IMG/VR virus record: IMGVR_UViG_3300027969_000063
Location: 32,001 to 96,000 of that record
Origin: a virus
DNA: 64,000 nucleotides
Strand: one strand, 5' to 3'
Shown here: piece by piece, positions 6,372 through 25,179 of the stretch
Layout of the letters: every line of letters begins with the position of its first letter
Position numbering within the stretch: the first letter of the stretch is position 1
The notes under the pieces: generated by a model
Database searches by the model: none
The model's input: only the letters and a program-made list of their open reading frames with translations
What the model was told of the DNA's origin: nothing
Translations under genes and position numbers: made by a program

Positions 6372-7481
6372 TCACCTAATAATTTGAATGTCTTTACCTG
6401 AAGTCCAGATTTCGAGTTCTGTCCTTAATCTACCCTCGGTTCTAAGGGTTTCGTATCTATTTATAGCTTTACTCCGCCACCATTCAATAATATTGGCCAG
6501 TTCATGTTTGGCATAGTTTTCACCAGGTAAAAGAGTATCAGTTTTACAGTTCATGTAATCTACTGTATTTTTGAAACCATAGTCCGATGTATAATATCTT
6601 TTCTTCTCTGTCAACTTTTTGGCGTTCTCAATCGTTAGGTTGAAAGTGTCACCTTCAGTTGTTCCTTTTAGAGCGGCTTTGGTTAAGGCAATAATTTTGG
6701 TAAATGTTCTTAACTTTCTACTGGTCGTTGAAGTATCACCACCCAATAAATCTCCAGTAATGTTCTCAACATAATCTTTTAGGTCATGATATCTTTGGCC
6801 GTGCATCATGGGTACCATATCAGATTCGGTCAGACCTCTAAATCGAATATAAGGTTTCATACCATCGTATTGTGATACTGACTTTGTAGAACCATATAAA
6901 CTGGTGGTTTCAAATAGGCAAAGATTCATACCATATTTCTTATTACAGATTTCTCTTACTGTATGGCTGGTACAAATGGCCGATAGAAGTTTGCCACCTA
7001 GGTAATTAAAACCAAATGGTTGAGCTGGTACAATTACAAATCCCATAGCACAAGAAACATTGAATCGTTTGGCAGTATCTTCCTGTTGGATCCAGACCTG
7101 TCCTAAGAGTTCGTTTCTAGGTTTCATATAGATTACTGGTGAACCTAAACGAATGAATCCTAGAACCTTTCCTGAGTTCTTCTCTCTAACTGCCAACTGT
7201 ATATTCTTACCAACTGGAGATTTATTGATGTGTGAAGAGGTAATGGCAAGTAATGTTTCAAATTGAGTATTTGGTATTTCACACACCTCAATATCCATAT
7301 CATTTGGGTGCATGGAGAAATCAGAGAACAAATCATCTTCGGGTGGAAATAAAGAAGATGGCAATTCTGCCACCGACTTTAACTTCTCATCACGCATGTA
7401 TTCTTCGGTACTTCCAATGTTACTAAAATAATCATTGAACACCTTAGAACAATGTAAGGCTTGTTCTCTAGTTAGTATCAT
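6372..7481 (-). CDS. DruA/DUF4338-like protein (paralog 1)
   Basis: IVPAQPFGFNYLGGKLL...ETTSLYG...SQYDG...GLT resembles the DruA GGKL/TTS-x-G motifs. Confidence 0.7.
   Translation of the reverse strand: MILTREQALHCSKVFNDYFSNIGSTEEYMRDEKLKSVAELPSSLFPPEDDLFSDFSMHPNDMDIEVCEIPNTQFETLLAITSSHINKSPVGKNIQLAVREKNSGKVLGFIRLGSPVIYMKPRNELLGQVWIQQEDTAKRFNVSCAMGFVIVPAQPFGFNYLGGKLLSAICTSHTVREICNKKYGMNLCLFETTSLYGSTKSVSQYDGMKPYIRFRGLTESDMVPMMHGQRYHDLKDYVENITGDLLGGDTSTTSRKLRTFTKIIALTKAALKGTTEGDTFNLTIENAKKLTEKKRYYTSDYGFKNTVDYMNCKTDTLLPGENYAKHELANIIEWWRSKAINRYETLRTEGRLRTELEIWTSGKDIQIIR
6458..6465 (-). promoter_or_regulatory. T4-type late promoter TATAAATA inside the upstream gene, serving the nuclease-like gene
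   Basis: Exact consensus ~90 nt upstream of the ATG at 6368. Confidence 0.55.
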
Positions 7482-8857
7482 ACTTTAAAGCCTTCAAAGT
7501 TCTTCTTTTCATGTTTAATTTTATTATTGGCACCAATATGACCGGCATCAGCAAGACCGTGTTGTGCTGATTGTTCAACATCATATAGTTTCATCTTGGC
7601 TCTATCGACACCAATGGTGAATCGTTTGTAATATGTTGGATCATTATAACGATTCTTTAATTGTTTAACCATCATCTGACCCATCTCTTCCAATTCTTCA
7701 GAAGAAATCAACGCAAACATTAGGTCGGCGGTTGCAGGCAACCCGAAACTCTCACTCGTATCCTCCAAGCCTGGATCGCTCGATGTGAATCCGCTTCTGG
7801 TAGTTTGAGTAGCAGATACAATAGGAACATTACATTCAACCGCAAGTCCCCTAAGTTCTTCTGCGATGGACTTGACATAGGTGTAAGAGTTAATATTCGC
7901 ACCAGCTTTGATACGAGAAGAACAGCAGATATTAAGATAATCCACAAAAATAATATCAGGCACGAAAGACCTTTTGAGGTTGAGTTCATTTAGTAAAGTC
8001 CTAAAATGTGTTGTCGATGCAGATGCTGTAGGATATTCTTTGATGATTAATTTACCAGTTACCTTCTCTTTAACCTTGGCAACCTTTTTATCATACATAT
8101 CTTTTGGTAAATCCATTAGGTCATCAAGAGTTACATTCAATAAGTTCGCATCTATTCTTTCTGCAATCTTTTCTTCAGCCATTTCAAGTGTAATGTATAA
8201 CACATTTTTTCCTTGAACCATAGCACCGGCAGCAACATGACACATAAACAAAGATTTACCAACGCCAGTACCAGCAAGAGCAATATTAAGGGTTTTGGCA
8301 GGTAATCCTCCCTTTGTAATTTTGTTAAAACATTCCAAATCAAAGGGGATTCGTTCTTCTTTTCTGTGATAGAATTCATATCGTTCATCGCTGTTCTCTA
8401 AGTAATCATGTCCTACGGAGTTATCGAAACTGACGGCCAAAGCGTCCGATAATATAGAGGGAATTGCACCTTTCTCGTTGCTTTTGTCCTTACCATCGAG
8501 AATTGAAATAGCCCGTAATACACCATTGTATATCGCCTTCTCTTGGCAAAACTTTTCCGTTTTGTCAACAAGCCATTGAACCTCGGTTTCTGTTTTGCTA
8601 CCAGCCTCAATTTCTTGGAGATAAGATTCACAGTTCTTAACTTCGTCATCCGAGAGATTATTCTTTTCTTTGAAGGCAATACTAATTGCTTCAATCGTAG
8701 GCGAAGAATTGTAAGTTTCCGTGAATGATGTAATCTCATTAAATAATGTCTTTTCAGTTCTGTCTGAAAAATATTCAGGCTTTAAAAATGGTAATACTTT
8801 CCTAAGAAAATCTTCATTGTAAATCAGATTCTTTAATATCGTCTGTTCCAGTTTCAT
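7478..8857 (-). CDS. gp41: replicative DNA helicase (T4 gp41, DnaB-like)
   Basis: LAGTGVGKS Walker A, YITLEMAEE, IFVDYL, SESFGLPATAD, KQLKNRY. Confidence 0.97.
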   Translation of the reverse strand: MKLEQTILKNLIYNEDFLRKVLPFLKPEYFSDRTEKTLFNEITSFTETYNSSPTIEAISIAFKEKNNLSDDEVKNCESYLQEIEAGSKTETEVQWLVDKTEKFCQEKAIYNGVLRAISILDGKDKSNEKGAIPSILSDALAVSFDNSVGHDYLENSDERYEFYHRKEERIPFDLECFNKITKGGLPAKTLNIALAGTGVGKSLFMCHVAAGAMVQGKNVLYITLEMAEEKIAERIDANLLNVTLDDLMDLPKDMYDKKVAKVKEKVTGKLIIKEYPTASASTTHFRTLLNELNLKRSFVPDIIFVDYLNICCSSRIKAGANINSYTYVKSIAEELRGLAVECNVPIVSATQTTRSGFTSSDPGLEDTSESFGLPATADLMFALISSEELEEMGQMMVKQLKNRYNDPTYYKRFTIGVDRAKMKLYDVEQSAQHGLADAGHIGANNKIKHEKKNFEGFKV

Positions 8858-9137
8858 CAATTATATCCTGCTCAAGATTGGATGACATAATTTCTACAAG
8901 TAGGTCACCAATATGGTTTTTAAAATTACTATCTTTTTGCAACTTCTTTGGTTTGTGTCCTATAGATTCTAACACATCATAAGCAAAAAGTAAATACATT
9001 TGTTCATCTTTTTCTTCAAACTTTACTCTACCATACTTAAATGTGGTATCTTTGTAAGGTCCATCCAAAAGTTTAATATGTACCGCAGTGTCATCCGTTT
9101 TAGGATAGATGTAACAATAATCAATTCCTTCAATCAT
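8814..9137 (-). CDS. hypothetical protein between uvsX and gp41 (position of T4 gp40)
   Basis: Synteny; 107-aa ORF coupled to both neighbours. Confidence 0.6.
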   Translation of the reverse strand: MIEGIDYCYIYPKTDDTAVHIKLLDGPYKDTTFKYGRVKFEEKDEQMYLLFAYDVLESIGHKPKKLQKDSNFKNHIGDLLVEIMSSNLEQDIIDETGTDDIKESDLQ

Positions 9138-10206
9138 CTTCTACTCCGTTTGTTGTCTCCACTTCAAATGCTTGGTCAACATCTCCTTGCATGATATTAC
9201 CTGAAGCAATTTGATAGGTGTTCTGTACAAAATCTTGGAAGGATTTTTGTTTGAGTATTGGTAGCCAAAATTCAGATGAATCGGTTTCTTTGATACGGTA
9301 TTTTTTATCTTCTATAACACCATCTGTGTCCACTTTGCTGTACCAACCATTAGTTGGCTTAACAACATGACCCGAATCAAGTGCAATATCAAGTAACCCG
9401 CTCCACTTACTAATGCCACCATCGTGACGAACAGTAACAGGAATTTTAGATTTCTCTCTAACATATCTACTCTTTTCTACATTGATGATAAAGTTATAAC
9501 CTACAACTTCAGTACCTTCTTTTTCTTGTTGCCGGCCAATAATGAAAACATTATCAGCCGAATACATTGAACCTGTTCCACCACCAACAATGGCTTTAGG
9601 GAACATTCCAATTTCCATGTAAGTATGATTTACCACAATCATTGGAATATCTTTAAGATTCAGGTGTGGTGTTACCATTCGAAATAATGATTTAACTTGT
9701 TTTGCTCTTGACATATCAGCAACAGACTTTTCAGCCAAGGCATCTTCTACTTCTTTCTTCGATGCTAAGTTACCAATAGAATCAATTATGATGATGAGTT
9801 TGTCACCCCTATCAAGTTTCGTAAGTTGTTGCATAATGTCGAATTTGAGTTGTTCGATATCTGTGAGGGGAGTGTGCAGTACACGCTCGGTATCGATACC
9901 AAAGCTGTCAAAATAACTCTGAGGAGTACCAAACTCACTATCGTAGAATAAAAGAGCCGCATCTTCATATTTGTCCAAATAAGATTTTGCCATCAAAAGT
10001 GAGAAAGCAGTCTTAAAGTGTTTTGATGGACCTGCCCACATTGTAAGACCTGGTGTTAAACCACCATCTAGTTTGCCACTCAATGCCACATTAATAATTG
10101 GCACAGAAGTAGGAATCATATCCTTGGCAGTAAAGAACTTTGATTTCGACAGAATGGCCGAATCTTTAATACTACTGTTCTTTTTAATTTTATCTAATAT
10201 ACTCAT
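9130..10206 (-). CDS. uvsX: RecA-like recombinase UvsX
   Basis: AGPSKHFKT, FYDSEFG, IDSIGNLASKKE, VVNHTY, KSRYVREK. Confidence 0.97.
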   Translation of the reverse strand: MSILDKIKKNSSIKDSAILSKSKFFTAKDMIPTSVPIINVALSGKLDGGLTPGLTMWAGPSKHFKTAFSLLMAKSYLDKYEDAALLFYDSEFGTPQSYFDSFGIDTERVLHTPLTDIEQLKFDIMQQLTKLDRGDKLIIIIDSIGNLASKKEVEDALAEKSVADMSRAKQVKSLFRMVTPHLNLKDIPMIVVNHTYMEIGMFPKAIVGGGTGSMYSADNVFIIGRQQEKEGTEVVGYNFIINVEKSRYVREKSKIPVTVRHDGGISKWSGLLDIALDSGHVVKPTNGWYSKVDTDGVIEDKKYRIKETDSSEFWLPILKQKSFQDFVQNTYQIASGNIMQGDVDQAFEVETTNGVEDD

Positions 10207-11213
10207 TTCTTATCCTTTTCACGAAATGCAAACTCTGCTTCATAATCATACTTAGGTTCTAATTTCTTAACTGGTTCTTCATCATGATGTTCACTATAAA
10301 ATCCTGGTGCATGATGAACTCTTTGGAAATTAGATATAGGTGGAATACTTTCACCAGTAACTCCATCGATAACAATATCTTCTTCCGGTTTTATTTCTGC
10401 AATGTTTTCCTTATCAACTTTAACTCTATCATCAACCGGATCTTCTGGCTTTTGAGGCTCTTCTGGCTCAGGCTTTTTATCTGTGAATACGGGAATATCG
10501 TTGGCAGTTAAACCTACCACTTCACCATTACGAACAATTGGCTTACCAACTGATCTGTTGTTCATAGACATATTTGCTGCTATCAATAATAACACAGCTA
10601 GCGGGTCAAATACAACCATGATTAACATGATTACCAATCTTACTGCTTTATCTAAGGCATTATCATCTTCCACTCCATAGATCATATCACCAACATACTT
10701 GATAGGACCAACTTCTGCGGTAAGTTTATTATTCTCTTTGAGTAATGGCAACTTCCGTTTATTGATTTCGGTAAGTTCTTTTTGAGTATCTTGAATTTGT
10801 TTATCGAGGCGGTTACTTGCCGTTGATGGATCTTTGGCACGAGCAAGTAAATAATCCAATCGTTCTTTGGTAATCTTTTCTTGTTGTACTAAAGTTTTAA
10901 TCTCTACTGTATTCATACCAGAGTCCATGGTAGAATCAATATGTGCTTTTGATAAGAAACCAAAAATACCCATCGAGGTAATAATCATCAGAATGACAAC
11001 GGCAAATGTCAAGTATGATTTTAATAAAAGTGGGCAGGTTTTCCAATTACGATACAGCCATGATGTAGTTACCAATTTGCTCAACTCAAGAACCGAACCC
11101 ATAAAAACGATTGGCCAAAATGCGCCAGTAAAAATTGCAGCCAAACCAATAACGGAATAATAGGCTGCAATACCTGATAGTAGTAGTGCTGATAATAGTG
11201 TTAAGAATATCAT
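10203..11213 (-). CDS. membrane protein with 3+1 TM helices flanking a coiled coil and an acidic Pro-rich tail
   Basis: Hydrophobic segments; GIFGFLSKAH, EVGPIKY and VFDPLAVLLLIA motifs; ATG at 11213 overlaps the gp43 stop. Confidence 0.65.
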   Translation of the reverse strand: MIFLTLLSALLLSGIAAYYSVIGLAAIFTGAFWPIVFMGSVLELSKLVTTSWLYRNWKTCPLLLKSYLTFAVVILMIITSMGIFGFLSKAHIDSTMDSGMNTVEIKTLVQQEKITKERLDYLLARAKDPSTASNRLDKQIQDTQKELTEINKRKLPLLKENNKLTAEVGPIKYVGDMIYGVEDDNALDKAVRLVIMLIMVVFDPLAVLLLIAANMSMNNRSVGKPIVRNGEVVGLTANDIPVFTDKKPEPEEPQKPEDPVDDRVKVDKENIAEIKPEEDIVIDGVTGESIPPISNFQRVHHAPGFYSEHHDEEPVKKLEPKYDYEAEFAFREKDKK

Positions 11214-14055: not shown

Positions 14056-14071
14056 GTTATTTCCTTTTTAT

Positions 14072-14079
14072 TATAAATA
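14072..14079 (+). promoter_or_regulatory. T4-type late promoter TATAAATA for the plus-strand operon
   Basis: Exact consensus upstream of the ORF at 14151. Confidence 0.65.
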
Positions 14080-14101
14080 CTTACAATGATTTGAACATTT
14101 A

Positions 14102-14594: not shown

Positions 14595-14680
14595 AAAAAT
14601 TGCAACCAACAGTTTTTATTTTAGTTTTGATTCTTTGTTTGGTATTAATGGTAGTTGAATCGGGACACGTTTTCAAATAA
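14591..14680 (+). CDS. 29-aa single-TM micropeptide
   Basis: MKKLQPTVFILVLILCLVLMVVESGHVFK; ATGA overlap with the upstream stop. Confidence 0.55.
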   Translation: MKKLQPTVFILVLILCLVLMVVESGHVFK

Positions 14681-14697
14681 ACTAAAGTGAGGTTATT

Positions 14698-14778
14698 ATG
14701 TTATCTAAAATTGTTTTTATATTTTGTTTTTTAGGAATGTCGTTGTTAATGATAATGGAATCTTTAGCTAAGTTTTAG
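14698..14778 (+). CDS. 26-aa single-TM micropeptide
   Basis: MLSKIVFIFCFLGMSLLMIMESLAKF; GAGGT RBS. Confidence 0.55.
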   Translation: MLSKIVFIFCFLGMSLLMIMESLAKF

Positions 14779-14779
14779 C

Positions 14780-14920
14780 CTATCTTCCTCTTCCCGCTTT
14801 TCTCATCACATTAGGTTTTGGAACAAACTTAGGTTTATTAACCTTTGGTGCTGGTCCTACTGGCTTTAGATCACGAACCTTTTTTAATTGTTCTTCACGA
14901 AATTTTTTGTCATCAGACAT
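14780..14920 (-). CDS. small basic protein (46 aa)
   Basis: AGGAG RBS; MSDDKKFREEQLKKVRDLKPVGPAPKVNKPKFVPKPNVMRKAGRGR. Confidence 0.6.
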   Translation of the reverse strand: MSDDKKFREEQLKKVRDLKPVGPAPKVNKPKFVPKPNVMRKAGRGR

Positions 14921-14929
14921 ATTTTCTCC

Positions 14930-15166
14930 TTAATAGATAAAAACAACTTCCGTAATGGGGATAACATAATCTTCATCGGCTACCTTAACCGCTTTATTCC
15001 AATTCACCAGTAACTCATCACCAATCTGTACTTCATCAACTTTAGGACCAAGAGCAACAACTTTTGCACGGTCTGGTGCTTCTGTGTACTTTAGAATGAT
15101 ACCTGATGCCGTCTGTTTCTCTGCGGCGATTCTTGTCACAATGATATTATTTTTTAATGGTTGCAT
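14930..15166 (-). CDS. groES: co-chaperonin GroES (Cpn10)
   Basis: MQPLKNNIIV...EKQTASGIIL...AKVVALGPKV...IGD. Confidence 0.85.
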   Translation of the reverse strand: MQPLKNNIIVTRIAAEKQTASGIILKYTEAPDRAKVVALGPKVDEVQIGDELLVNWNKAVKVADEDYVIPITEVVFIY

Positions 15167-15324
15167 AATTTTCTTTCCGCAATAGCTCTTTGAATTTTGT
15201 TGATATGTTTTTTACGAGCACCTTCAAGTAGTTTCTCTAACTGTTCAATATTCAACGGACCTAATCTCTGTTTACCATTTTTGGTCAACATTGGATTTTT
15301 CTTTTTAGATTTTGCAACAGCCAT
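15154..15324 (-). CDS. small basic protein (56 aa)
   Basis: MAVAKSKKKNPMLTKNGKQRLGPLNIEQLEKLL...; AAGG RBS. Confidence 0.55.
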   Translation of the reverse strand: MAVAKSKKKNPMLTKNGKQRLGPLNIEQLEKLLEGARKKHINKIQRAIAERKLCNH

Positions 15325-15341
15325 AATATACCTTTTAAAAG

Positions 15342-15415
15342 TGGAGCGGGATATTGGAATCGAACCAATAACGAGAGGTTGGAAACCTCTAGTTTTACCA
15401 TTAAACTAATCCCGC
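15342..15415 (-). tRNA. tRNA-Gly(TCC) with encoded CCA
   Basis: GCGGGAT/ATCCCGC acceptor stem, D-loop AATGGTA, AGAGG-TTTCCAA-CCTCT anticodon arm, TTCGATT T-loop, U73-CCA. Confidence 0.95.
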
Positions 15416-15419
15416 ATGG

Positions 15420-15477
15420 ACTACATTAGCCACAGTTTCTATGTTTGCTACCGATAACTCGGTTCGTCTAATGCAGT
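15420..15477 (-). ncRNA. three-way-junction structured element between the two tRNA-type genes
   Basis: ACTGCATTAG/CTAATGTAGT closing stem encloses the hairpins ACCGA-GTTA-TCGGT and CATAG-AAA-CTGTG. Confidence 0.5.
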
Positions 15478-15483
15478 TTAAAC

Positions 15484-15550
15484 TGGAGCGGTGGTCTGCT
15501 ATGCTCAGATAATATAAGAGGGTATCTCACATCGTACTATTACACACCGC
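15484..15550 (-). ncRNA. non-canonical tRNA-Gly-like RNA (67 nt)
   Basis: GCGGTG/CACCGC-T-CCA acceptor; 3-bp mini D-arm; 7-bp stem with loop ATACCCT; 4-bp T-stem with non-canonical loop AGCATAG. Confidence 0.75.
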
Positions 15551-15553
15551 ATA

Positions 15554-15673
15554 TTACTTTTCTTTATCTTTTCTTGCCTTACCTTTTGCTTCAATTCTGG
15601 CAAGTAAATCTAATAATTCTTTTTTAGTTAACATTCTACCCCAAGAAGGAGTGTTATTTGCTTTTTCTGTCAT
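15554..15673 (-). CDS. small hypothetical protein (39 aa)
   Basis: MTEKANNTPSWGRMLTKKELLDLLARIEAKGKARKDKEK. Confidence 0.4.
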   Translation of the reverse strand: MTEKANNTPSWGRMLTKKELLDLLARIEAKGKARKDKEK

Positions 15674-15680
15674 ATGTAAC

Positions 15681-15710
15681 ATGATATCATTACTTATACA
15701 TCATTGTCAA
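15681..15710 (-). promoter_or_regulatory. sigma70-like promoter upstream of the tRNA locus
   Basis: TTGACA-18 nt-TATCAT. Confidence 0.5.
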
Positions 15711-15875
15711 ATGGTTATAGCAAAATATACCAAAATAAACTTTACTATAACCACTCTTCTTAGACTTCTCTAAACGCCTTACTGCTTTGTTACTTTTACG
15801 ATGAACTCCAGCCTTACGAAACAATGCCAACTTGACAAGATAGTTTCGTGGTTGAGGAGTAGTTTTCTTTTTCAT
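15690..15875 (-). CDS. small basic hypothetical protein
   Basis: AGGAG RBS; PRNYLVKLALFRKAGVHRKSNK. Confidence 0.55.
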   Translation of the reverse strand: MKKKTTPQPRNYLVKLALFRKAGVHRKSNKAVRRLEKSKKSGYSKVYFGIFCYNHLTMMYK

Positions 15876-15906
15876 GATACTCTCCTGTTGATAATACTTT
15901 ATAAAC

Positions 15907-16419
15907 TTATTGTGGGGGTTTCCAACCTAGAGATTCTGGAACAATCTGACTGTCCGGATCTTGAATGCCAAAGAATACTTCCCACAATTTCTCTTTTATT
16001 GCGAACTTACTAAACAAACCAACTTCTGTTCCAAATGCTTCTATTTCCCAAGGCTGAACCCAATAATCCATACTATCAGAATCAACCTTCTTTCCTTTCC
16101 AACGAGTTAATGTTTCGTTGGTTTCATTATAAGCATATTGCTTAATGTGTGTCATTTCGTGTGCCAAGGTTTTTAATATCTCAGCTGCACCAATTCCAGG
16201 ATGAAGTTCAATTTGAAACTCTCTCGCCTTACGACTTTCATTGTACTCTAAAATTTCAGCGTAACCATAGGCCTCAATCTTAGGATTAAATCTAATCCGT
16301 AGATAGATATTTTCTCTTAACTTTGGTGATATAAGTTGTTCAGCATAAAATACAGCAGCTCGTTTTACATACGGCCTGAAGTGCTTTTTATCGGGACAAC
16401 CAACTATACTTAGCTGCAT
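15907..16419 (-). CDS. putative zinc metallopeptidase (SprT-like, HExxH)
   Basis: TLAHEMTHIKQY...PWEIEA. Confidence 0.75.
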   Translation of the reverse strand: MQLSIVGCPDKKHFRPYVKRAAVFYAEQLISPKLRENIYLRIRFNPKIEAYGYAEILEYNESRKAREFQIELHPGIGAAEILKTLAHEMTHIKQYAYNETNETLTRWKGKKVDSDSMDYWVQPWEIEAFGTEVGLFSKFAIKEKLWEVFFGIQDPDSQIVPESLGWKPPQ

Positions 16420-17280: not shown

Positions 17281-17748
17281 TTACTCATCTTTTGATTTTA
17301 CGGCAATCTTCTTTACCGCATCCTGTGCTTTTACCATGGCTTCTAACCAGATTTTAAGCATACCATTAGTAATTACGGCATCCTTAATCTCTACCTTATC
17401 GGCAAGAGTAAAGGTACGAGAAAAATTACGGTTGGCAATACCTCTGTAGATGAAACTAGCCGGATCTTCTTCAGATTCAACTGCAGAACCTTTGATTACC
17501 AATTTACTACCGTCTAAGGTAACTTCAATATCAGTTTTAGCAAAGCCAGCAACTGCCAGTTCGATGACATACTTGTTGTCTTTTACTTGTTTGATATTGT
17601 ATGGAGGGTAGCTAGTTGTTGCTTTAGCGACTGTTTCAGATACTTCACGGATTTGGTCCAATACGTCATCGAAACCAACTGTGAACGGATCCAAAGTTTT
17701 GTGGAGGGAAGCCCATTGTGGGATTAAAGATAAAGTTGTGCTTGTCAT
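17281..17748 (-). CDS. hsp20: small heat-shock protein Hsp20 (IbpA-like)
   Basis: SYPPYNI, IELAVAGF, YRGIANRNFSRTFTL, NGMLKIWL. Confidence 0.95.
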   Translation of the reverse strand: MTSTTLSLIPQWASLHKTLDPFTVGFDDVLDQIREVSETVAKATTSYPPYNIKQVKDNKYVIELAVAGFAKTDIEVTLDGSKLVIKGSAVESEEDPASFIYRGIANRNFSRTFTLADKVEIKDAVITNGMLKIWLEAMVKAQDAVKKIAVKSKDE

Positions 17749-17754
17749 AGATTT

Positions 17755-17771
17755 CTCCTTAATTAAGCGAG
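17755..17771 (-). promoter_or_regulatory. ROSE-like RNA thermometer hairpin sequestering the hsp20 Shine-Dalgarno sequence
   Basis: CTCGCTT-AATT-AAGGAG: UCGCU pairs with AGGA leaving a bulged G. Confidence 0.65.
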
Positions 17772-17808
17772 TTACATTAAATTAAGATACCCCGAAGGCA
17801 TATCTGGT

Positions 17809-17901
17809 TTATACTGGTTACGGTATCCAGCGGCATCGTAACGTCATGCCCGCTTTAAAACGCTTCGTAAACTTAGCGGTCCTAAGGTGAAGCCAGTATA
17901 A
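17809..17901 (-). ncRNA. multi-stem structured RNA in the hsp20 leader
   Basis: TTATACTGG/CCAGTATAA outer stem; inner GCTTC/GAAGC, CTTAG/CTAAG and GGCAT/ATGCC stems; begins just after a late promoter. Confidence 0.6.
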
Positions 17902-17904
17902 TCT

Positions 17905-17912
17905 TATTTATA
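17905..17912 (-). promoter_or_regulatory. T4-type late promoter TATAAATA
   Basis: Exact consensus overlapping the transporter stop codon. Confidence 0.7.
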
Positions 17913-18948
17913 CTAGAAAAGTAAATAGTCCAGCGGTTATTAATAATAAACCAGCCCAACTACCTAGTGCTTTATAATATGTTTTGAGTGGTGTACCAAA
18001 ATAACGGTTACCAACCATAACACATTTATGCGTAGGACTTAATAAGTAACCAGCATAATCTACTGCAAAGAACCACATAAAATATTCTTGGCCAAATACT
18101 TGAGCCATCAATACGGCGATTGCAATAAACTTACCGCTACTACCCATCAGGAAACTTACAACAAATCCAACAAGCGAAATCAAGGTCATACCAATTAAAG
18201 AGTGTGGGTCAAAACCCGAACCTTTAATGTATGTAATAAATTCGTTATTGTAGGATTTAAAGAAGTTACCTAGAATGATAACTGCGGCGACTGTACCTAA
18301 TACTTCCCAATTCACATAACTTAATAATTTTGGAATACGCCATTGTTGTGTAATAAAAACATAATACAATGCCAACAAACCAAAAATTATAAAAACATTA
18401 TCTTTACCGCCACCATAAATGTAAGCACCCAAGGCAATAAACATAGGAAAGACATTACGCATTACTGTGCTGAGTTTGAAGGTGTCTGGTTTGATAACCA
18501 CATCTTCTTCTTTTACTTCATGCCAAATATACCAAGAAATAAAAATAAAACTAACAATCAGTAATGGTGCAATCATGCCCATAAATGTTGCATAGGTAAG
18601 ACCAAATGCTGCAATAGGAAGAACAACTGTTTTCTCTAAAGGTGACCACATATAATAGTGGTGTGTCGATAGATAATCAACGATGCCCATCTTCTCACGA
18701 CCTGGACCATTTTTTGGAACTACGGTGTCTAATAAACCTGCTGATACTGTTACTCTGCCTTCAATTGGTAAAATACCGCCAATAGCACTTAGAAGAACAA
18801 CAACAAATTTATTAGAACGGAAGGTGTTCTTAATATAAGAGTACGCTGGGGCAAAAAGAGAATACTCTTTGGCTAGTCCAGCAGCAATCATTATAAAGAA
18901 TACCATCCATAGATAGCCTAGGCCATCTAATAGTTTTAATACATCCAT
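17908..18948 (-). CDS. polytopic membrane transporter (DUF401 / ion-transporter superfamily-like)
   Basis: About 10 hydrophobic helices; GGILPIEGRVTVSAGL, HHYYMWSPLE and LLSPTHKC motifs. Confidence 0.65.
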   Translation of the reverse strand: MDVLKLLDGLGYLWMVFFIMIAAGLAKEYSLFAPAYSYIKNTFRSNKFVVVLLSAIGGILPIEGRVTVSAGLLDTVVPKNGPGREKMGIVDYLSTHHYYMWSPLEKTVVLPIAAFGLTYATFMGMIAPLLIVSFIFISWYIWHEVKEEDVVIKPDTFKLSTVMRNVFPMFIALGAYIYGGGKDNVFIIFGLLALYYVFITQQWRIPKLLSYVNWEVLGTVAAVIILGNFFKSYNNEFITYIKGSGFDPHSLIGMTLISLVGFVVSFLMGSSGKFIAIAVLMAQVFGQEYFMWFFAVDYAGYLLSPTHKCVMVGNRYFGTPLKTYYKALGSWAGLLLITAGLFTFLV

Positions 18949-19009
18949 ATAATACTCCTCAAATCAAATGCACCACAGAATCATGGTATAATCATATTTA
19001 TTACATCAA

Positions 19010-19806: not shown

Positions 19807-20738
19807 TATTTGAACTCACAATCCACCATAATTTCTGTCAGACAAGCAACCATATTAATCTCATGATCAGCCACGAAAGCTGCCTGATATTGATACTTAG
19901 CAAGAATCAAAACTAGTTGAGGAACGGATTGAGGTTTCAATACCTCATAAAGAGTATCGTATAGTTTACGATAGATTTTGACCGGATCATTGTCAAGGTT
20001 AGCAGTAACCCATTTACGAGTTGAGCCAAAGTCTTTAGATTTTAAAGCTGTAATGAGGGTATCAAGTTGAATGTCAGCAACATTAGAAAGAATACCAGAA
20101 TCAATTGTGCCAGAAACCGAATATCGTTGCAGTTCATTAAGAACCCTACGATTATCAGGAAAGTGTTTTGTGATAACTGCCGCAACGACATCTTTTGAAT
20201 AGGTGATATTTTCCTTTTCAAGAATCCATTCAACTCTTTTAAAGAATTGAGCAGCCATTTTTTGTTTGGCGCCATTGATTTTAAAATCGACCACAGAACA
20301 ACGAGAGTGGATTGGATCGATGATACGATTCTTATAATTACAAGTGAATATGAACGAACAGTTTGAGGAGAACTCTTCAATCGCTCCACGCAATGCTGGT
20401 TGAGTTGAATTAGGATTAAGATAGTCGGCCTCATCAATGATAACAACCTTCCGGCCACCAGCAAGAGAAACTGATGAAGCATAGTTCTTAATCTTTGTCC
20501 GAAGGACATCAATACCTGATTCGTCTGAACCGTTAATAACAATAAAGTCACACCCAACTTCATTACATAGTGCTTTAGCAATAGTTGTTTTTCCAACACC
20601 TGCTGAACCAGATAATAATAGATTAGGTATTTCTTTTCGGTTAACGTACTCTTGAAAGGTAGATTTAATCGCATCAGGTAAGATACAATCTTCAATAGTT
20701 TTTGGCCGATACTTCTCGACCCATAGTAAATGTTCCAT
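19806..20738 (-). CDS. gp44: clamp loader AAA+ subunit (gp44)
   Basis: LWVEKYRP, GSAGVGKTT, IIDEAD, HSRC. Confidence 0.97.
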   Translation of the reverse strand: MEHLLWVEKYRPKTIEDCILPDAIKSTFQEYVNRKEIPNLLLSGSAGVGKTTIAKALCNEVGCDFIVINGSDESGIDVLRTKIKNYASSVSLAGGRKVVIIDEADYLNPNSTQPALRGAIEEFSSNCSFIFTCNYKNRIIDPIHSRCSVVDFKINGAKQKMAAQFFKRVEWILEKENITYSKDVVAAVITKHFPDNRRVLNELQRYSVSGTIDSGILSNVADIQLDTLITALKSKDFGSTRKWVTANLDNDPVKIYRKLYDTLYEVLKPQSVPQLVLILAKYQYQAAFVADHEINMVACLTEIMVDCEFK

Positions 20739-20764
20739 CACAAACTCCCATAATATAATACATC

Positions 20765-21373
20765 TTATTCAAAAATACAATTAATAATCAAGCGATACTT
20801 CTTGTCCGTTGGTATGTTACCGGAATGTATCTGGTTAGAATCAAATATGATAGCACGACCTTTAACTGCTTCTATCCTTTGTTGTATAGTTAACTCTTCT
20901 TTAATAGGCACTCCATTATACTTCTCATTATATAAAATGGTTTCACCGTCAGAATTGTTTACATAGTACAACAATGTTTTTCTATTTCCAATATAACCTG
21001 TTGAATCATATGAAGATTCATCACCATCATCCGTATGTGGTCTTTGTAGTTTTACTCCGACCTGAGGCATTAATAAATTAGCTTTGATTCTTGATGCAGA
21101 TTTTATCTTACCAAATTGATTCTCATAACAAGCAATCAATGGTGCAATATAGTGCAGGTGTGCTGATTTGATTTTATTGTTTTCAATAAACGTATGTCGG
21201 AATTGAATATGTTCAGCCGTTGGTTGATTTGTAAAAAACAAATCTTCTAACTCCGTACTACTACTCACCGAATGTTTATGGAACGACCAAGCGATATCTT
21301 CACCACCCATTAATTTATAAATTGAATCTATATAAACTTCTGGTAAGAAGTTATCAATAATGATTGGTTCCAT
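20765..21373 (-). CDS. 2OG-Fe(II) oxygenase
   Basis: PHTD...LLYYVNNSDGET...GRAIIFDSNQIHSG...R (HxD...H...R). Confidence 0.8.
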   Translation of the reverse strand: MEPIIIDNFLPEVYIDSIYKLMGGEDIAWSFHKHSVSSSTELEDLFFTNQPTAEHIQFRHTFIENNKIKSAHLHYIAPLIACYENQFGKIKSASRIKANLLMPQVGVKLQRPHTDDGDESSYDSTGYIGNRKTLLYYVNNSDGETILYNEKYNGVPIKEELTIQQRIEAVKGRAIIFDSNQIHSGNIPTDKKYRLIINCIFE

Positions 21374-21573
21374 TAATTGGTGGCCAATGCACCGTTAATA
21401 ACACCAACCACTTCACTATAGTTTTGTGTAACGCCAATCGTTGCACTAGGAATACCAATGACAACAACCTCTTCATTGAGTTCTTCATTTTTATGTGTAA
21501 CAACACACAAAACGTGTTTTGGATTAATTGCAACTGGATTACCAGTCATTTTGTCCGTGAATTGAACTAACAT
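21373..21573 (-). CDS. small hypothetical protein
   Basis: AGGAG RBS; MLVQFTDKMTGNPVAINPKHV. Confidence 0.6.
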   Translation of the reverse strand: MLVQFTDKMTGNPVAINPKHVLCVVTHKNEELNEEVVVIGIPSATIGVTQNYSEVVGVINGALATN

Positions 21574-21574
21574 A

Positions 21575-22246
21575 TTATTCTCCTGTTTTAGTTTCTTTTG
21601 CTTCAAATGCGATCCAATATTGGATATCTTCTTTCGTATTCTTGAAATGACCAATACCCTTGAAAGAGATTTCAACATCATAACTTCCAGGAATCATTTT
21701 GATATTTTCAGTTTTGAATACAATATTATACTTCTTGCCATTACCTTCGCCAACTTGGGTCGAGTTTGTGTGTGCGGAATTATCTAAGGCATCAAATGTA
21801 ACCACTTCGATTGCATCACCATCGGACTTGATACCAATGTGTGGTGAACTCAAAACAGAAGATGATGACATGATTGATTTGTAATCTTCTTCAGAAAGAG
21901 TGAAAGAACAATCAACAGAAGGAAGAGTAATCTCTTTTTCTGGAGGAGTAACAATCATCTCCTTTGCCGTCATACGATAGTTTGTTTTTCTCTTACCACT
22001 CTTAAAAATGATATCGGAATCACTAAAATCAATTTCAGAATCTTTAAACAAAGAATGTACCGATAGGAATTGATTCAAATCGTATACACAAAAATCTTGT
22101 GGAAAAGAATCTTTCAGAACGGCTTGTGCCAAAACAGTTTTACCAGATGATACTGTGGTAAGTTTGGTGCCTTTTTTGAATTGAATACCTTGATTGATAC
22201 TTGAAAAGTTTTTCAATACGGTTAGTGTTTCATTTGATAACTTCAT
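21575..22246 (-). CDS. gp45: sliding clamp (gp45)
   Basis: MKLSNETLTVLKNFSSINQ, YDLNQFL, YWIAFE. Confidence 0.95.
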   Translation of the reverse strand: MKLSNETLTVLKNFSSINQGIQFKKGTKLTTVSSGKTVLAQAVLKDSFPQDFCVYDLNQFLSVHSLFKDSEIDFSDSDIIFKSGKRKTNYRMTAKEMIVTPPEKEITLPSVDCSFTLSEEDYKSIMSSSSVLSSPHIGIKSDGDAIEVVTFDALDNSAHTNSTQVGEGNGKKYNIVFKTENIKMIPGSYDVEISFKGIGHFKNTKEDIQYWIAFEAKETKTGE

Positions 22247-22269
22247 TTATTTCTCCATTATGTAAAATT

Positions 22270-22692
22270 TTACTGCTCTTTCGAATACATTATATCATGT
22301 TCATACAGAAACATCAAGCAGCACATGGCGTGTGCCAAGTGATGTAAACCGGATTCAGGATCAAACTTCTCTCCTTCTTTCCAAGCCCATGTATGCCGTT
22401 GCATTGCATCAAAGTACCTACGCTTTGCTTCTGGTACATGGATCCAATTATCTCTTTCATACTTCTGAGCACCAAAAGTTAAAACTTCTGTAAGGGCTTT
22501 TAGCCCGTGAGGGGGAACTAAACCATATTCTAATTTACCACCATCAAATTTACGGCCAATATTTGTATTAAAAGCATCTTCATAACCTGGATGATAAGGT
22601 GCTTCTTCAACTAGTTTGTTACTTGTAGATTCAAAAAGCTTTGTTCCATAAGTTATTTCTTTACCTTTAACACCATACTTTTTTGTTCCCAT
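22270..22692 (-). CDS. dATP/dGTP diphosphohydrolase-domain protein (DUF5664-like)
   Basis: GRKFDGGK...LTFGAQKYERDNW...DPESGLHHLAHA. Confidence 0.8.
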   Translation of the reverse strand: MGTKKYGVKGKEITYGTKLFESTSNKLVEEAPYHPGYEDAFNTNIGRKFDGGKLEYGLVPPHGLKALTEVLTFGAQKYERDNWIHVPEAKRRYFDAMQRHTWAWKEGEKFDPESGLHHLAHAMCCLMFLYEHDIMYSKEQ

Positions 22693-23510
22693 TACATTTC
22701 TCCAACATAATTAGCAACAGCTGGCATATCTCCTTGGAAATGATATGTACCAATGTGTGCAGTTCTCATCCAAGGACATAAGAAGATTTCTCCACCAATC
22801 TTACGCCACATCTGGCAGAACATATAATCTTCTGATAGGTAACGGTCTGAACCACCACCTGTAATAGAATCTTTGGTGTCAATTACTGTATCAAAATAAG
22901 CATGAATGTAACGAGTACCATCAAAGTGTGCCTGACCTACATGGTCTGGTTTATATTTGATTTCAGGATAAGCTTCTTTCATTTTGGTAAATACTTCACG
23001 CTTAATCATCATGAATCCCGTTCCAATTTCCAAAACATCTAAAGGTTCTGTTACACTAAACTGTGCCGTTCCTTGTACTGGATTGAATACAAAGTCACCA
23101 GCAATTTTTTCTAATGTCTGTGGGTCAATGTCAGGATTCTTTATAACACCTTTTTTAATAGACGACCACTTAATTGCTTTTTTAGGATAAGGACCACCAA
23201 TCACATCTTTGTCTAGTGCCAACATGGCAATAACATCCTGTGGCTGGAAGTGTACGTCAGAATCTATAAACAACATATGAGTACATTCTGAACGATTTAT
23301 AAATTCGTCAACAAGGTAATTCCTTGCTCTTGTAATTAGTGATTCATTAAACAGAAATGAAAATTTTATATTTACGCCATATTGAATACAAGAACTCTGT
23401 AAGTCTAAACAGGCCTTCATGTATAGTCCGTGGTTCATACCACCGTACATGGGTGTGGCCACAAATAAACTTTTCTTTTGTAGTTCTTCTTTTTTGATTG
23501 ATATTTCCAT
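22692..23510 (-). CDS. GT-A-fold glycosyltransferase-like protein
   Basis: FVATPMYGG, ESLITRARN, LFIDSD, GTGFMMI, LSEDYMFC. Confidence 0.7.
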   Translation of the reverse strand: MEISIKKEELQKKSLFVATPMYGGMNHGLYMKACLDLQSSCIQYGVNIKFSFLFNESLITRARNYLVDEFINRSECTHMLFIDSDVHFQPQDVIAMLALDKDVIGGPYPKKAIKWSSIKKGVIKNPDIDPQTLEKIAGDFVFNPVQGTAQFSVTEPLDVLEIGTGFMMIKREVFTKMKEAYPEIKYKPDHVGQAHFDGTRYIHAYFDTVIDTKDSITGGGSDRYLSEDYMFCQMWRKIGGEIFLCPWMRTAHIGTYHFQGDMPAVANYVGEM

Positions 23511-23528
23511 TTGTGCTCCGTGAATAGT

Positions 23529-23561
23529 AAAAAAGGGAGTATCTCCTATGAAGAACTCCCT
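23529..23561 (-). terminator. intrinsic terminator after the HTH gene
   Basis: GGGAGT...ACTCCC stem followed by a T-run. Confidence 0.6.
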
Positions 23562-23569
23562 ATGCTAGA

Positions 23570-23833
23570 TTAGGCTAAAGAATAACCTGATTTGATAGCC
23601 GCCTTAACCAAAGCTTTGGTTGGCTTACCCATGCGATAGAAGGCAACCTTCTGACCATCTACAACTTTTTTATTTGTGTAGATTACATGGCCTTCTTGAC
23701 GCAGTTCATCAATACGGGCTGAAACATTGGTGATGCCGAAACGGCGTTGTGCTTGTTTGACGGTAAAAGTGTTGTAACCTTCGGTTTGTTGTAAGGCATT
23801 CAACATCTTTTGTTTAGCAGATAAATTGCTCAT
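23570..23833 (-). CDS. winged helix-turn-helix DNA-binding protein
   Basis: FTVKQAQRRFGITNVSARIDELRQEGHVIYTN. Confidence 0.75.
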   Translation of the reverse strand: MSNLSAKQKMLNALQQTEGYNTFTVKQAQRRFGITNVSARIDELRQEGHVIYTNKKVVDGQKVAFYRMGKPTKALVKAAIKSGYSLA

Positions 23834-23885
23834 TGTAATACTCCATAGTAAAGTTAAAAAATCCTTGCCTTAAGCAAGTATTCAC

Positions 23886-23915
23886 ATCATATCATTTATG
23901 TATGTGATTTGTCAA
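23886..23915 (-). promoter_or_regulatory. sigma70-type promoter of the HTH gene
   Basis: TTGACA-18 nt-TATGAT. Confidence 0.65.
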
Positions 23916-23919
23916 GCGT

Positions 23920-25179
23920 TTATCGACCAACTTGTGGTAAATATTTCGCTTTGGTATCTTCCCATGACAGGTAAATAAGGTCGTCATAGAAAAGAGTTTC
24001 GTAGGATACCGTATTCTTTTTCTGTAATTGCCGAATACGGCCTTTGGCATACTTTGTTTTCCAAATAGTTGCCAATGCTTGTTCACTGGTATCGAATGAT
24101 TTTACCAATGCCTCATCTGTAATTTCTTTACGGAGAAATTCATTGGTATTATTATAGAGCGGACTAAAATAGATACCACGTTGGTGTTCGGTACGAATCA
24201 ATTCTTTTGGTATACCAAGTTTAGAATAAGCAAAGTTCAATGAACGATTCTTATGATCACGCTTGAGTGGAAGTCCTTGTGTGTTCTTGGCTTCCCACCA
24301 TTCAAAATATTTACGAGTATGGTTTTCTTTAATCCAATCGAATACTAATTTTTTAGTCGATCTACTTGGTTCGAAAGCCACAGAACCAGAAGAAAAACCC
24401 ATAGGAGTCCAATGGTCAAGACCATCATACTGTGAGAGGCCTCCGGTTTTTGTTTTTCCATATAGTGATGTTGTAGTAACGCCGACAAGAGTGTCTCCAT
24501 ATTGCCTCTTCCAATCTGCTTGAACTGTATCAGATAAACACATCAATGCCAATAATTTACCACCCATGTAATTAAAACCAAGTGGTTGTAACGGAACGAT
24601 GGTGGATCCAATCGCTGTATGATTAATCATATGTTGTTGTGTCTTAACATCTCTCGACCATCCGATTGCATTATCTCTCGGAGTCAAGTCCAGGAAGTCT
24701 GAGGAGATACAAATAACACCAAGGTATTTACCTGTTACTTCATCTGTCAAAACATAGAATAAATTACGACCAATGTTGGAATTGTTTTTCATTGTGGATG
24801 AAAATGTACGAATGGCATTCCACTTTTCGGCATCAGGACCATTTGAAAGAACCATAACAGGTTTCAATTTCTCATAATCATCAGGTTGTGTTGGCATCCA
24901 GAAATTTGATTTCATTTTATCAACCAATTTCTTTTGTTCAGGATCAACCATCTGTGTTTCTTGGCCAAACAATGTAGATACTTCTTGAACTGGATATCTC
25001 TCTTTTACTTCACACCACTTTTGATATAAGGTATATTCACGAACATCCATTTGAGAAGCATAAGTTAAGTCCTTGATGAGGACTTCTTTCATGTTACCTT
25101 CATCGATGTGTTCAAAGATAGTGTTCTTTTCAGACCACTCTTTCCATTGTTTTTCTACATACTCAATTGGTGTTGCCAT
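23920..25179 (-). CDS. DruA/DUF4338-like protein (paralog 2)
   Basis: IVPLQPLGFNYMGGKLLA...VTTTSLYG...SQYDG...GFSSG; shares motifs with 6372..7481. Confidence 0.7.
   Translation of the reverse strand: MATPIEYVEKQWKEWSEKNTIFEHIDEGNMKEVLIKDLTYASQMDVREYTLYQKWCEVKERYPVQEVSTLFGQETQMVDPEQKKLVDKMKSNFWMPTQPDDYEKLKPVMVLSNGPDAEKWNAIRTFSSTMKNNSNIGRNLFYVLTDEVTGKYLGVICISSDFLDLTPRDNAIGWSRDVKTQQHMINHTAIGSTIVPLQPLGFNYMGGKLLALMCLSDTVQADWKRQYGDTLVGVTTTSLYGKTKTGGLSQYDGLDHWTPMGFSSGSVAFEPSRSTKKLVFDWIKENHTRKYFEWWEAKNTQGLPLKRDHKNRSLNFAYSKLGIPKELIRTEHQRGIYFSPLYNNTNEFLRKEITDEALVKSFDTSEQALATIWKTKYAKGRIRQLQKKNTVSYETLFYDDLIYLSWEDTKAKYLPQVGR

What the first reader, a model, noticed from the sequence alone, without database searches (positions are those of the whole stretch)
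6372..25179. Candidate system: two DruA/DUF4338-like paralogs plus a dedicated Gly-tRNA-like RNA and a dNTP hydrolase in the replication module
Seen: 6372..7481 (coupled to the gp41 helicase) and 23920..25179 (after gp46-def) are divergent paralogs. They share IVPxQPxGFNYxGGKLL, TTSLYG and SQYDG. Between them lie the tRNA-Gly pair, a DUF5664-like dATP/dGTP diphosphohydrolase, a GT-A protein and a 2OG-Fe(II) oxygenase. Established: DUF4338 is the DruA component of the bacterial Druantia defence system. No DruE-like helicase partner is recognisable here. Inference, unverified: the domain may have a GNAT/Mom-like fold. The phage Mu Mom product, N6-carbamoylmethyl-adenine, is formally glycine-derived, and GNAT-fold Fem enzymes use aminoacyl-tRNA. 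The pair could therefore be a replication-coupled DNA hypermodification enzyme, possibly a heterodimer, fed by the odd tRNA-Gly. Alternatives are a dominant-negative anti-Druantia mimic or a superinfection-exclusion factor.
Basis: inference. Interest (0 to 1): 0.8.

Follow-up and report, generated by a model that had tools for sequence, protein, structure and literature searches.

The report
Phage Mom-like enzymes with glycine-tRNA mimic
A marine T4-like phage carries two DruA-family enzymes whose closest solved structure is phage Mu's DNA-modifying enzyme Mom, plus a conserved shrunken glycine-tRNA look-alike that sits right next to such an enzyme gene in related phages, which points to an untested system that may use its own activated glycine to modify phage DNA.

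Summary
ORFs 6372-7481 and 23920-25179 (both minus strand) are divergent paralogs of Pfam DruA/DUF4338. They lie inside T4-type replication operons of a pelagiphage-like myovirus. AlphaFold models of both are GNAT folds, and phage Mu Mom (8bv8) is the top solved neighbour of each (Z 9.9 and 11.0, about 180 residues aligned). Sequence profiles show no Mom membership.

Mom is now known to transfer glycine from Gly-tRNAGly to adenine N6 in DNA.

The "tRNA-Gly pair" is one ordinary tRNA-Gly(UCC) plus a 69-nt tRNA-like RNA that tRNA finders miss but covariation supports. The ordinary tRNA sits in a hypervariable tRNA island and is not specific. Versions of the mimic occur in all four DruA-2 lineages checked. 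They start about 70 nt after the DruA-2 stop in 9 of 13 distant loci. None was found in 20 cyanophages.

A heterodimer is not supported, nor is membership of the dNTPase, "GT-A" or 2OG genes in the system. The donor (aminoacyl-tRNA or acyl-CoA) and the target (DNA) are inferred, not shown.

The scan has already noted the same idea in at least 45 other genomes.

The parts
6372..7481 (-). DruA-1: 369-aa DruA/DUF4338-family GNAT. Its start overlaps the stop of the gp41 helicase gene. It is the orthologue of the cyanophage 'putative cytoplasmic protein' (T4-like GC 1216, phrog_19197).
   Evidence: Pfam DruA 33.7 bits. phrog_19197 at E 2.4e-127. AF2 model pLDDT 86. The top PDB neighbour is Mom 8bv8_A, Z 11.0, rmsd 3.8, 180 aligned. 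Orthologues at 37-49% identity occur in 30 phage records.
23920..25179 (-). DruA-2: 419-aa DruA/DUF4338-family GNAT. Its start overlaps the stop of the peptide deformylase gene. It has an N-terminal helical domain, a GNAT core at about residues 105-270, a helical insertion at 273-320 before the last strands, and C-terminal helices.
   Evidence: Pfam DruA 79.1 bits. AF2 model pLDDT 95, pTM 0.91. Mom 8bv8_A is the top neighbour, Z 9.9, rmsd 4.2, 186 aligned. Orthologues at 56-58% identity occur in pelagiphages HTVC008M and Mosig.
15484..15552 (-). Miniature tRNA-Gly-like RNA. The acceptor stem reads GCGGUG/CACCGC, followed by U73 and an encoded CCA. It has a 3-bp D arm without GG, a 9-bp anticodon stem with a loop containing ACCC, and a T arm with loop AGCAUAG (no T-psi-C).
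   Evidence: Missed by ARAGORN and by Rfam at E<=1. RNAalifold finds 22 pairs, 11 with compensatory changes. Covariance model R1 finds it or a variant in most related loci, in HTVC008M and in Mosig. In a distant lineage R1 hits begin about 70 nt after the DruA-2 orthologue.
15342..15415 (-). Ordinary tRNA-Gly(UCC) with encoded CCA. It is the only canonical tRNA in the 105.5 kb record and is probably a codon-usage tRNA.
   Evidence: ARAGORN. Rfam tRNA 68.6 bits. Present in only some close relatives.
15417..15483 (-). CCA-ended structured spacer RNA between the two Gly elements. Its role is unknown and it is not conserved in the related loci.
   Evidence: MFE -19.4 kcal/mol, z -3.86. No blastn hit in 80 related loci.
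25179..25754 (-). Peptide deformylase gene, the conserved upstream neighbour of DruA-2. It is context and is not shown to be part of the system.
   Evidence: Pfam Pep_deformylase E 7.7e-37. The same def-DruA-2 order is seen in Mosig and in L234.
7478..8860 (-). gp41-type replicative helicase gene, upstream of DruA-1 (context).
   Evidence: Pfam DnaB_C E 1.6e-19.

Best explanation
The two genes encode Mom-like GNAT transferases of the DruA family. They are expressed with the phage replication genes. Most likely they modify nucleic acid, probably adenine in phage DNA, to escape host restriction or Druantia-type immunity. The two paralogs probably act independently, for example on different sequence contexts. 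For DruA-2 at least, the likely acyl donor is glycine carried on the phage's own miniature tRNA-Gly-like RNA. That RNA keeps the acceptor-end identity marks for GlyRS but lacks the elbow and anticodon-loop features needed for decoding. It would therefore supply activated glycine without competing with translation. Shown here: family membership, GNAT fold, Mom as the nearest solved structure, a real conserved tRNA-like RNA, and its physical linkage to DruA-2 in relatives. Inferred: DNA as the target, glycyl-RNA as the donor, and the anti-restriction role.
For: Both models are GNAT folds, and Mom 8bv8_A ranks first for each with about 35-45 more aligned residues than most of the GNATs ranked below it (Z 9.9/186 aligned; Z 11.0/180 aligned). 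A Mom homolog also appears in the viral library. Both have a helical insertion before the last strand, where Mom has its essential HTH-like insertion. Mom transfers Gly from Gly-tRNAGly to N6-dA and seems to read mainly the acceptor end (PMC13219725). DruA homologs are fused to ParB_N (3 cases), UDG and DUF3102. Druantia type I expression gives a new PacBio adenine signal although the system has no methylase. The mini tRNA is supported by covariation. It occurs in all four DruA-2 lineages checked: the window clade, HTVC008M, where it is the only tRNA, Mosig, and the L229-L240 lineage, where it begins about 70 nt after the DruA-2 stop in 9 of 13 loci. None was found in 10 DruA-negative or 10 DruA-1-only cyanophages. 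Canonical tRNA-Gly(UCC) occurs in 9 of 10 DruA-1 cyanophages against 4 of 10 controls (Fisher one-sided 0.029).
Against: Profile comparison with the Mom family finds nothing (hhalign probability 0.1%). Mom's essential R111, S124, D149 and R151 have no evident counterparts. The DruA family keeps a nearly invariant Q-P-x-G-x-N...GGK stretch after strand 4 and an invariant Tyr. These resemble the CoA-pyrophosphate loop and general acid of acyl-CoA GNATs, so the donor may be acyl-CoA. The Z scores are within 1 of many unrelated GNATs. The co-occurrence of the mini tRNA with DruA-2 is confounded by phylogeny, because all carriers are pelagiphage-like. In this window the RNA is 8 kb from either gene. 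Four close relatives with DruA-2 show no mini tRNA in the fetched stretch, although their tRNA islands run close to or off the end of it, so this is weak. S-B68 has DruA-1 but no tRNA-Gly. No modified base has been reported for these phages in the papers searched.
Confidence: 0.4

Rival explanations
1. The proteins are acyl-CoA-dependent GNAT acyltransferases. They modify DNA, a replication protein, a nascent N-terminus (DruA-2 follows peptide deformylase) or a small molecule such as a polyamine or nucleotide. The tRNA-like RNA is unrelated.
For: A nearly invariant Q198-P-x-G201-x-N...G206-G207-K208 stretch and an invariant Y251 sit where acyl-CoA GNATs have their pyrophosphate loop and general acid. 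Most structural neighbours after Mom are CoA-dependent acetyltransferases such as SpeG, AAC(6'), RimI and Naa60. def-DruA-2 adjacency is conserved. There is no profile similarity to Mom.
Against: This does not explain why the mini tRNA-Gly lies directly behind the DruA-2 orthologue in 9 of 13 distant loci, nor why it is the only tRNA of HTVC008M. ParB_N and UDG fusions point to DNA rather than to proteins or small molecules.
Confidence: 0.3
2. The proteins serve defence or superinfection exclusion. The phage DruA homologs act like their Druantia counterpart and mark or sense DNA so that competing phages are excluded.
For: The family is named after a defence component. Phage-encoded homologs of defence genes are known (Phold preprint).
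Against: No DruE-type helicase domain occurs in the record, and no DruB-D-like genes were seen among the annotated neighbours. The genes are embedded in, and translationally coupled to, core replication operons across many phages. This fits a function on the phage's own DNA.
Confidence: 0.1
3. The proteins are catalytically silent mimics of DruA that poison host Druantia type I complexes.
For: Homology to DruA. Anti-defence by mimicry is a known phage strategy.
Against: The motifs conserved across the whole family, including the invariant K208 and Y251, are intact in both paralogs, which argues for active enzymes. Thousands of near-identical copies in marine metagenomes indicate strong purifying selection on the full length. 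Druantia type I was not shown to exist in the hosts.
Confidence: 0.05

Closest known systems
Mom of bacteriophage Mu (Pfam PF25680; PDB 8bv8), Gly-tRNAGly-dependent N6-adenine modifier of dsDNA (PMC13219725)
   Same: Both are GNAT folds with an extra helical insertion before the last strand. Mom is the best solved structural neighbour of both paralogs. Both are phage encoded. Both have a link to tRNA-Gly. A short Q-R-G-V-Y stretch in DruA-2 (residues 333-337) matches Mom 195-199, inside Mom's essential insertion.
   Different: There is no profile-level sequence similarity. The DruA proteins are 370-420 aa with added N- and C-terminal domains, against 241 aa for Mom. Mom's catalytic R111, S124, D149 and R151 are not evidently kept. 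These genes sit in early replication operons, whereas mom is a late, tightly regulated gene. Mom uses host tRNAs, and here the phage brings its own non-decoding tRNA-like RNA.
DruA (DUF4338, PF14236) of the Druantia type I defence system
   Same: Same Pfam family, with both proteins above the gathering score and PADLOC DruA hits.
   Different: There are no DruB-E partners. The genes are encoded by a lytic phage inside replication operons, and there are two paralogs. The function of DruA itself is unknown.
Non-proteinogenic tRNA-Gly isoacceptors of Staphylococcus that feed the GNAT-fold Fem transferases (own knowledge; cited as precedent in PMC13219725)
   Same: In both cases a tRNA-Gly variant keeps the aminoacylation identity but lacks features for ribosomal use, and it is paired with a GNAT-fold transferase.
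   Different: Here the RNA is shorter, with an elongated anticodon stem and no T-psi-C or GG. It is phage encoded. The presumed target is DNA rather than peptidoglycan. Charging and transfer have not been tested.
T4 tRNA-cluster small stable RNAs (species 1 and 2; own knowledge)
   Same: Both are CCA-ended structured RNAs lying among tRNA genes of a T4-like phage, and both are presumably released by tRNA processing.
   Different: The element here carries specific tRNA-Gly acceptor features. It is conserved across divergent lineages, next to or near a DruA gene.

Membership tests
Pfam DruA / DUF4338 (PF14236) | Whole-protein HMM score above the gathering cut-off (27 bits) | tested here: met
   P0001 scores 33.7 bits and P0002 79.1 bits. 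Both places are also found in the own record.
Druantia type I system | DruA encoded together with DruB, DruC, DruD and the DruE helicase (MZB/DUF1998 domain) | tested here: not met
   No MZB domain was found in the 105.5 kb record. All neighbours are T4-type replication genes. The record is only 63% complete.
GNAT superfamily | GNAT core fold | tested here: met
   The models have pLDDT 95 and 86. Hundreds of GNAT chains score Z >= 8. DUF4338 is called a GNAT in PMC10853773.
GNAT superfamily | Acyl-CoA binding through the Q/R-x-x-G-x-G/A loop | not testable with these tools
   A Q-P-x-G-x-N...GGK stretch is nearly invariant. It resembles the loop, but no binding test was possible.
Mom family (Pfam PF25680) | Sequence-profile match to Mom | tested here: not met
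   Pfam scans at E<=1 list no Mom hit. hhalign of the DruA alignment against a 32-sequence Mom alignment gives probability 0.1%.
Mom family (Pfam PF25680) | Mom-type structure: GNAT core plus an essential helical insertion before the last strand | tested here: met
   8bv8_A ranks first for both paralogs, with 186 and 180 of 222 residues aligned. Z is within about 1 of other GNATs, so this shows likeness and not membership.
Mom family (Pfam PF25680) | Catalytic residues R111, S124, D149 and R151 | tested here: inconclusive
   No residue-level superposition was available. By motif position the equivalents differ: G201 sits where S124 would be, and T-T-S-L-Y-G sits in place of S-F-A-D-E-R.
Mom family (Pfam PF25680) | Uses Gly-tRNAGly to modify N6 of adenine in dsDNA | not testable with these tools
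   Only comparative linkage to a tRNA-Gly-like RNA is available.
Canonical elongator tRNA (Rfam RF00005) | Covariance-model score above 29 bits, T-psi-C loop, D-loop GG and a 7-nt anticodon loop with U33 | tested here: not met
   For the mini RNA at 15484-15552 there is no Rfam hit at E<=1 and no ARAGORN call. The T loop reads AGCAUAG, the D arm has no GG, and position 33 is C in some relatives. The neighbouring tRNA-Gly(UCC) meets all of these (68.6 bits).
Non-proteinogenic tRNA-Gly type donors | GlyRS identity set kept (G1:C72, C2:G71, G3:C70, U73, C35/C36) | tested here: met
   The acceptor GCGG...CCGC-U-CCA is invariant in the four-lineage alignments, and all loops contain CC. Actual charging has not been tested.

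The most novel reading that the evidence does not exclude
Pelagiphage-like T4 phages run a self-supplied, tRNA-dependent DNA hypermodification. A private, non-decoding glycyl-tRNA mimic feeds Mom-like DruA enzymes, which aminoacylate adenines in replicating phage DNA. By extension, DruA would be the missing enzyme that marks self DNA in Druantia type I.
Probability: 0.3. Interest if true: 0.9.

Novelty: new variant of a known kind. Interest (0 to 1): 0.72.

Why it matters
These genes are among the most abundant phage genes in marine metagenomes, with thousands of 90%-identity clusters for each paralog. If they modify DNA with tRNA-borne glycine, then a large share of ocean myovirus DNA carries an unrecognised base modification. 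That would affect sequencing, restriction-based methods and host-range biology. It would be the second example of tRNA-dependent DNA modification after Mom, and the first with a dedicated carrier RNA encoded by the virus. It would also give a testable function to DruA, the unexplained first gene of Druantia type I. Finally, it would explain small tRNA-like RNAs that standard tRNA finders miss and that annotators overwrite with hypothetical ORFs, as in Mosig.

Tried and rejected

Single proteins were used as queries.

A profile search of PDB sequences with the DruA alignment found nothing meaningful.

Foldseek against the PDB gave no hit at E<=0.001, only GNATs at E about 0.02-0.1. VIA-align re-ranking was therefore used.

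hhalign of DruA against Mom, with a single sequence and with an alignment, gave no significant match.

Complex prediction of DruA-1 with DruA-2 returned no verdict (score 0.00). It says nothing for or against binding.

A Z-genome reading of the dATP/dGTP diphosphohydrolase was rejected because the record has no PurZ-type adenylosuccinate synthetase.

The GT-A / glucosyltransferase label for 22692-23510 could not be verified.

blastn with a 71-nt tRNA-Gly query was too insensitive for a census. It was replaced by Rfam plus ARAGORN on 20 genomes.

The Protein Atlas only returned the protein's own DruA clusters.

The idea that the ordinary tRNA-Gly(UCC) is the dedicated partner was rejected, because its locus is a hypervariable tRNA island.


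Full report
**What the window is.** All genes from about 200 to 32000 lie on the minus strand. They form a T4-type replication and recombination module: gp47, gp46, peptide deformylase, gp45 clamp, gp44/gp62 clamp loader, RegA, Hsp20, a family-B DNA polymerase, UvsX and a gp41 helicase. The nearest isolates are the Pelagibacter myophages HTVC008M and Mosig, followed by Synechococcus myoviruses (Kyanoviridae). The window is part of a 105.5 kb IMG/VR virus record estimated to be 63% complete.

**The observation.**
- ORF 6372-7481 (DruA-1, 369 aa) and ORF 23920-25179 (DruA-2, 419 aa) are true paralogs. BLASTP gives E 7e-27 with 35% identity over 170 residues.
- Both exceed the Pfam DruA/DUF4338 gathering score and hit PADLOC DruA models.
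- The quoted motifs are present in both.
- The DruA-1 start overlaps the stop of the gp41 gene, and the DruA-2 start overlaps the stop of the deformylase gene. Both are therefore embedded in replication operons.
- The dATP/dGTP diphosphohydrolase and a 2OG-Fe(II) oxygenase are confirmed. The 'GT-A' label is not.
- No DruE-type domain and no PurZ occur in the record.

**Distribution.** Each paralog has thousands of 90%-identity clusters in marine metagenomes. DruA-2 has 895 50%-identity representatives at E<=0.001. Among 50,697 phage records only 31 have a homolog.
- About twenty Synechococcus phage isolates carry DruA-1 only. In the five I inspected it lies in the clamp-loader stretch, after gp44 and just before gp62.
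- Mosig carries DruA-2 only.
- HTVC008M carries both.

Each paralog can therefore work alone, which argues against an obligate heterodimer. A complex prediction gave no verdict.

**Fold.** With a 58-sequence alignment, AlphaFold2 gives a DruA-2 model of pLDDT 95. DruA-1 gives pLDDT 86. There is no sequence-level PDB relative. Foldseek returns only GNATs, weakly.
- VIA-align re-ranking puts the crystal structure of phage Mu Mom (8bv8_A) first for both proteins.
- For DruA-2 the match is Z 9.9, rmsd 4.2, 186 of 222 residues aligned.
- For DruA-1 it is Z 11.0, rmsd 3.8, 180 aligned.
- The next GNATs score within about 1 Z unit, and most align only about 140-150 residues (the longest, NatF/Naa60, about 157-168).
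- Both DruA models have a helical insertion before the last beta-strands, where Mom has its essential HTH-like insertion.
- A viral-library search also lists a Mom homolog, as well as DruA-like proteins of giant viruses.

Independently, Aravind and colleagues call DUF4338 a GNAT (PMC10853773). The Phold preprint noted DruA-like folds in six Synechococcus phages without proposing a function.

**Not a Mom family member.** Mu Mom belongs to Pfam PF25680. The DruA proteins do not hit it. Profile-profile comparison with a 32-sequence Mom alignment finds nothing.

The only local likeness is Q-R-G-V-Y in DruA-2 (R334 and G335 are nearly invariant), matching Mom 195-199 inside its insertion. This is a lead and not a test.

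The DruA family keeps a nearly invariant Q-P-x-G-x-N...G-G-K stretch after strand 4, T-T-S-L-Y-G, and an invariant Tyr. By position the first resembles the CoA pyrophosphate loop of classical GNATs. An acyl-CoA donor therefore remains a serious rival.

**What is known about Mom.** Silva et al. (PMC13219725) show that Mom transfers glycine from Gly-tRNAGly to N6 of adenine in dsDNA. It accepts all three tRNAGly isoacceptors but not Gly-tRNAAla. It probably reads the acceptor end.

**Evidence for a DNA target.** Some DruA homologs carry N-terminal ParB_N (three cases), UDG-superfamily or DUF3102 domains. [quoted passage not shown] A Mom-like DruA is an obvious candidate for that signal. This last step is my inference.

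**The tRNA question.** ARAGORN and Rfam find one tRNA in the whole record, an ordinary tRNA-Gly(UCC) at 15342-15415. In 87-99% identical relatives the same spot is a hypervariable tRNA island holding anything from one tRNA (Met) to ten. Many of these islands have no tRNA-Gly. That tRNA is therefore not a dedicated partner.

In isolates, tRNA-Gly(UCC) is present in 9 of 10 DruA-1 cyanophages and 4 of 10 DruA-negative ones. Fisher one-sided p is 0.029. This is uncorrected for phylogeny or for tRNA number, so it is suggestive only.

**The second 'tRNA'.** The element at 15484-15552 is different in kind.
- It folds as a small cloverleaf. The acceptor stem GCGGUG/CACCGC is followed by U73 and an encoded CCA. 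The D arm is 3 bp without GG. The anticodon stem is 9 bp with a loop containing ACCC. The T loop reads AGCAUAG.
- Across relatives, 11 of 22 pairs show compensatory changes.
- A covariance model built from it (R1) finds this form or a second form in roughly 26 of 32 related loci that cover the spot. The second form has a UGUCCAA loop and a UGCGAAU T loop.
- HTVC008M's only tRNA is an aberrant tRNA-Gly(ACC) without T-psi-C or GG.
- Mosig has a similar ACC element that both tRNA finders miss and that is annotated as a hypothetical CDS.
- In a more distant lineage (DruA-2 orthologues of about 40% identity) the element begins about 70 nt after the DruA-2 stop, on the same strand, in 9 of 13 loci. 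The synteny there is gp47-gp46-def-DruA-2-[RNA]-peptidase-CobS.
- R1 finds nothing in 10 DruA-1-only and 10 DruA-negative cyanophages.

There are caveats. All carriers belong to one broad pelagiphage-like group, so the co-occurrence is not phylogenetically independent. Four close relatives with DruA-2 show no element in the fetched stretch, though their islands run close to or off the end of it. In this window the RNA is 8 kb from either gene.

**Reading.** The best-supported model is a Mom-like, replication-associated nucleic-acid modification by two independent DruA-family GNATs. For DruA-2 the phage's non-decoding tRNA-Gly mimic is the likely glycine donor. This parallels the non-proteinogenic tRNAGly species that feed Fem transferases (own knowledge). 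I put this at about 0.4. An acyl-CoA-dependent acyltransferase unrelated to the RNA comes to about 0.3. Defence, exclusion or decoy roles are lower. Nothing here measures a modification.

**Novelty.** The papers searched contain no link between phage DruA homologs, Mom-type chemistry and a private tRNA-Gly. The scan itself has raised the same idea in at least 45 other genomes. I re-tested its key claim of adjacency and confirmed it. I did not find strict co-loss. If true, this is a new variant of two known kinds: Mom-type modification and dedicated non-proteinogenic tRNA-Gly.

Noticed in passing
window 15417-15483 (-): A 67-nt CCA-ended structured RNA lies between the two Gly elements (MFE -19.4, z -3.86). 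It has no blastn match in 80 related loci, so it may be a decayed tRNA or a lineage-specific small RNA.
   Followed up: partly
window 17743-17807 (-), upstream of hsp20 (17281-17748): There is a weak match to the ROSE_3 RNA thermometer (23 bits, gathering score 43, E 0.14) in the hsp20 leader. It pairs the Shine-Dalgarno region.
   Followed up: no
window about 14600-15900 and loci L010-L080: The stretch between the 170-aa gene (15907-16419) and the DNA polymerase gene is a hypervariable tRNA island. Relatives with 87-93% identical DruA-2 carry from one to ten different tRNAs there.
   Followed up: yes
L085/L092 (Mosig MT647606.1 7775-7858, minus strand): Mosig's miniature tRNA-Gly(ACC) overlaps an annotated 'hypothetical protein' (Mosig_000011), so the CDS call is probably spurious. 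In HTVC008M the aberrant tRNA-Gly(ACC) is the only tRNA of the genome.
   Followed up: yes
proteins P0152, P0182, P0188, P0196, P0237: These metagenomic DruA homologs carry N-terminal UDG-superfamily, ParB_N or DUF3102 domains. Others (P0256, P0263, P0269) have 350-500-residue N-terminal extensions with no Pfam match.
   Followed up: partly
fold search, viral library: DruA-like proteins occur in giant viruses (Faunusvirus, Yasminevirus, Dasosvirus; Foldseek E 1e-9 to 1e-19). Some are 1150-1260 residues long.
   Followed up: no
window 25179-25754 / 23920-25179 (-); L085; L234: The peptide deformylase gene directly precedes DruA-2 in the window, in Mosig and in the distant L234 lineage. The reason for this conserved pairing is unknown.
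   Followed up: partly
window 17908-18948 (-): A 346-aa DUF401-family membrane protein (phrog_14035) sits between regA and hsp20 in the replication module.
   Followed up: no
L152 (Syn19 NC_015286.1 about 163913-163985): ARAGORN calls a tRNA with anticodon CUA (labelled Pyl), which would be an amber-suppressor-type tRNA, in cyanophage Syn19.
   Followed up: no
L112 (S-SSM7 NC_015287.1 151563-151633): In S-SSM7 the tRNA-Gly(UCC) stands alone about 3 kb downstream of the DruA-1 gene, far from the phage's main tRNA cluster at 216 kb.
   Followed up: no
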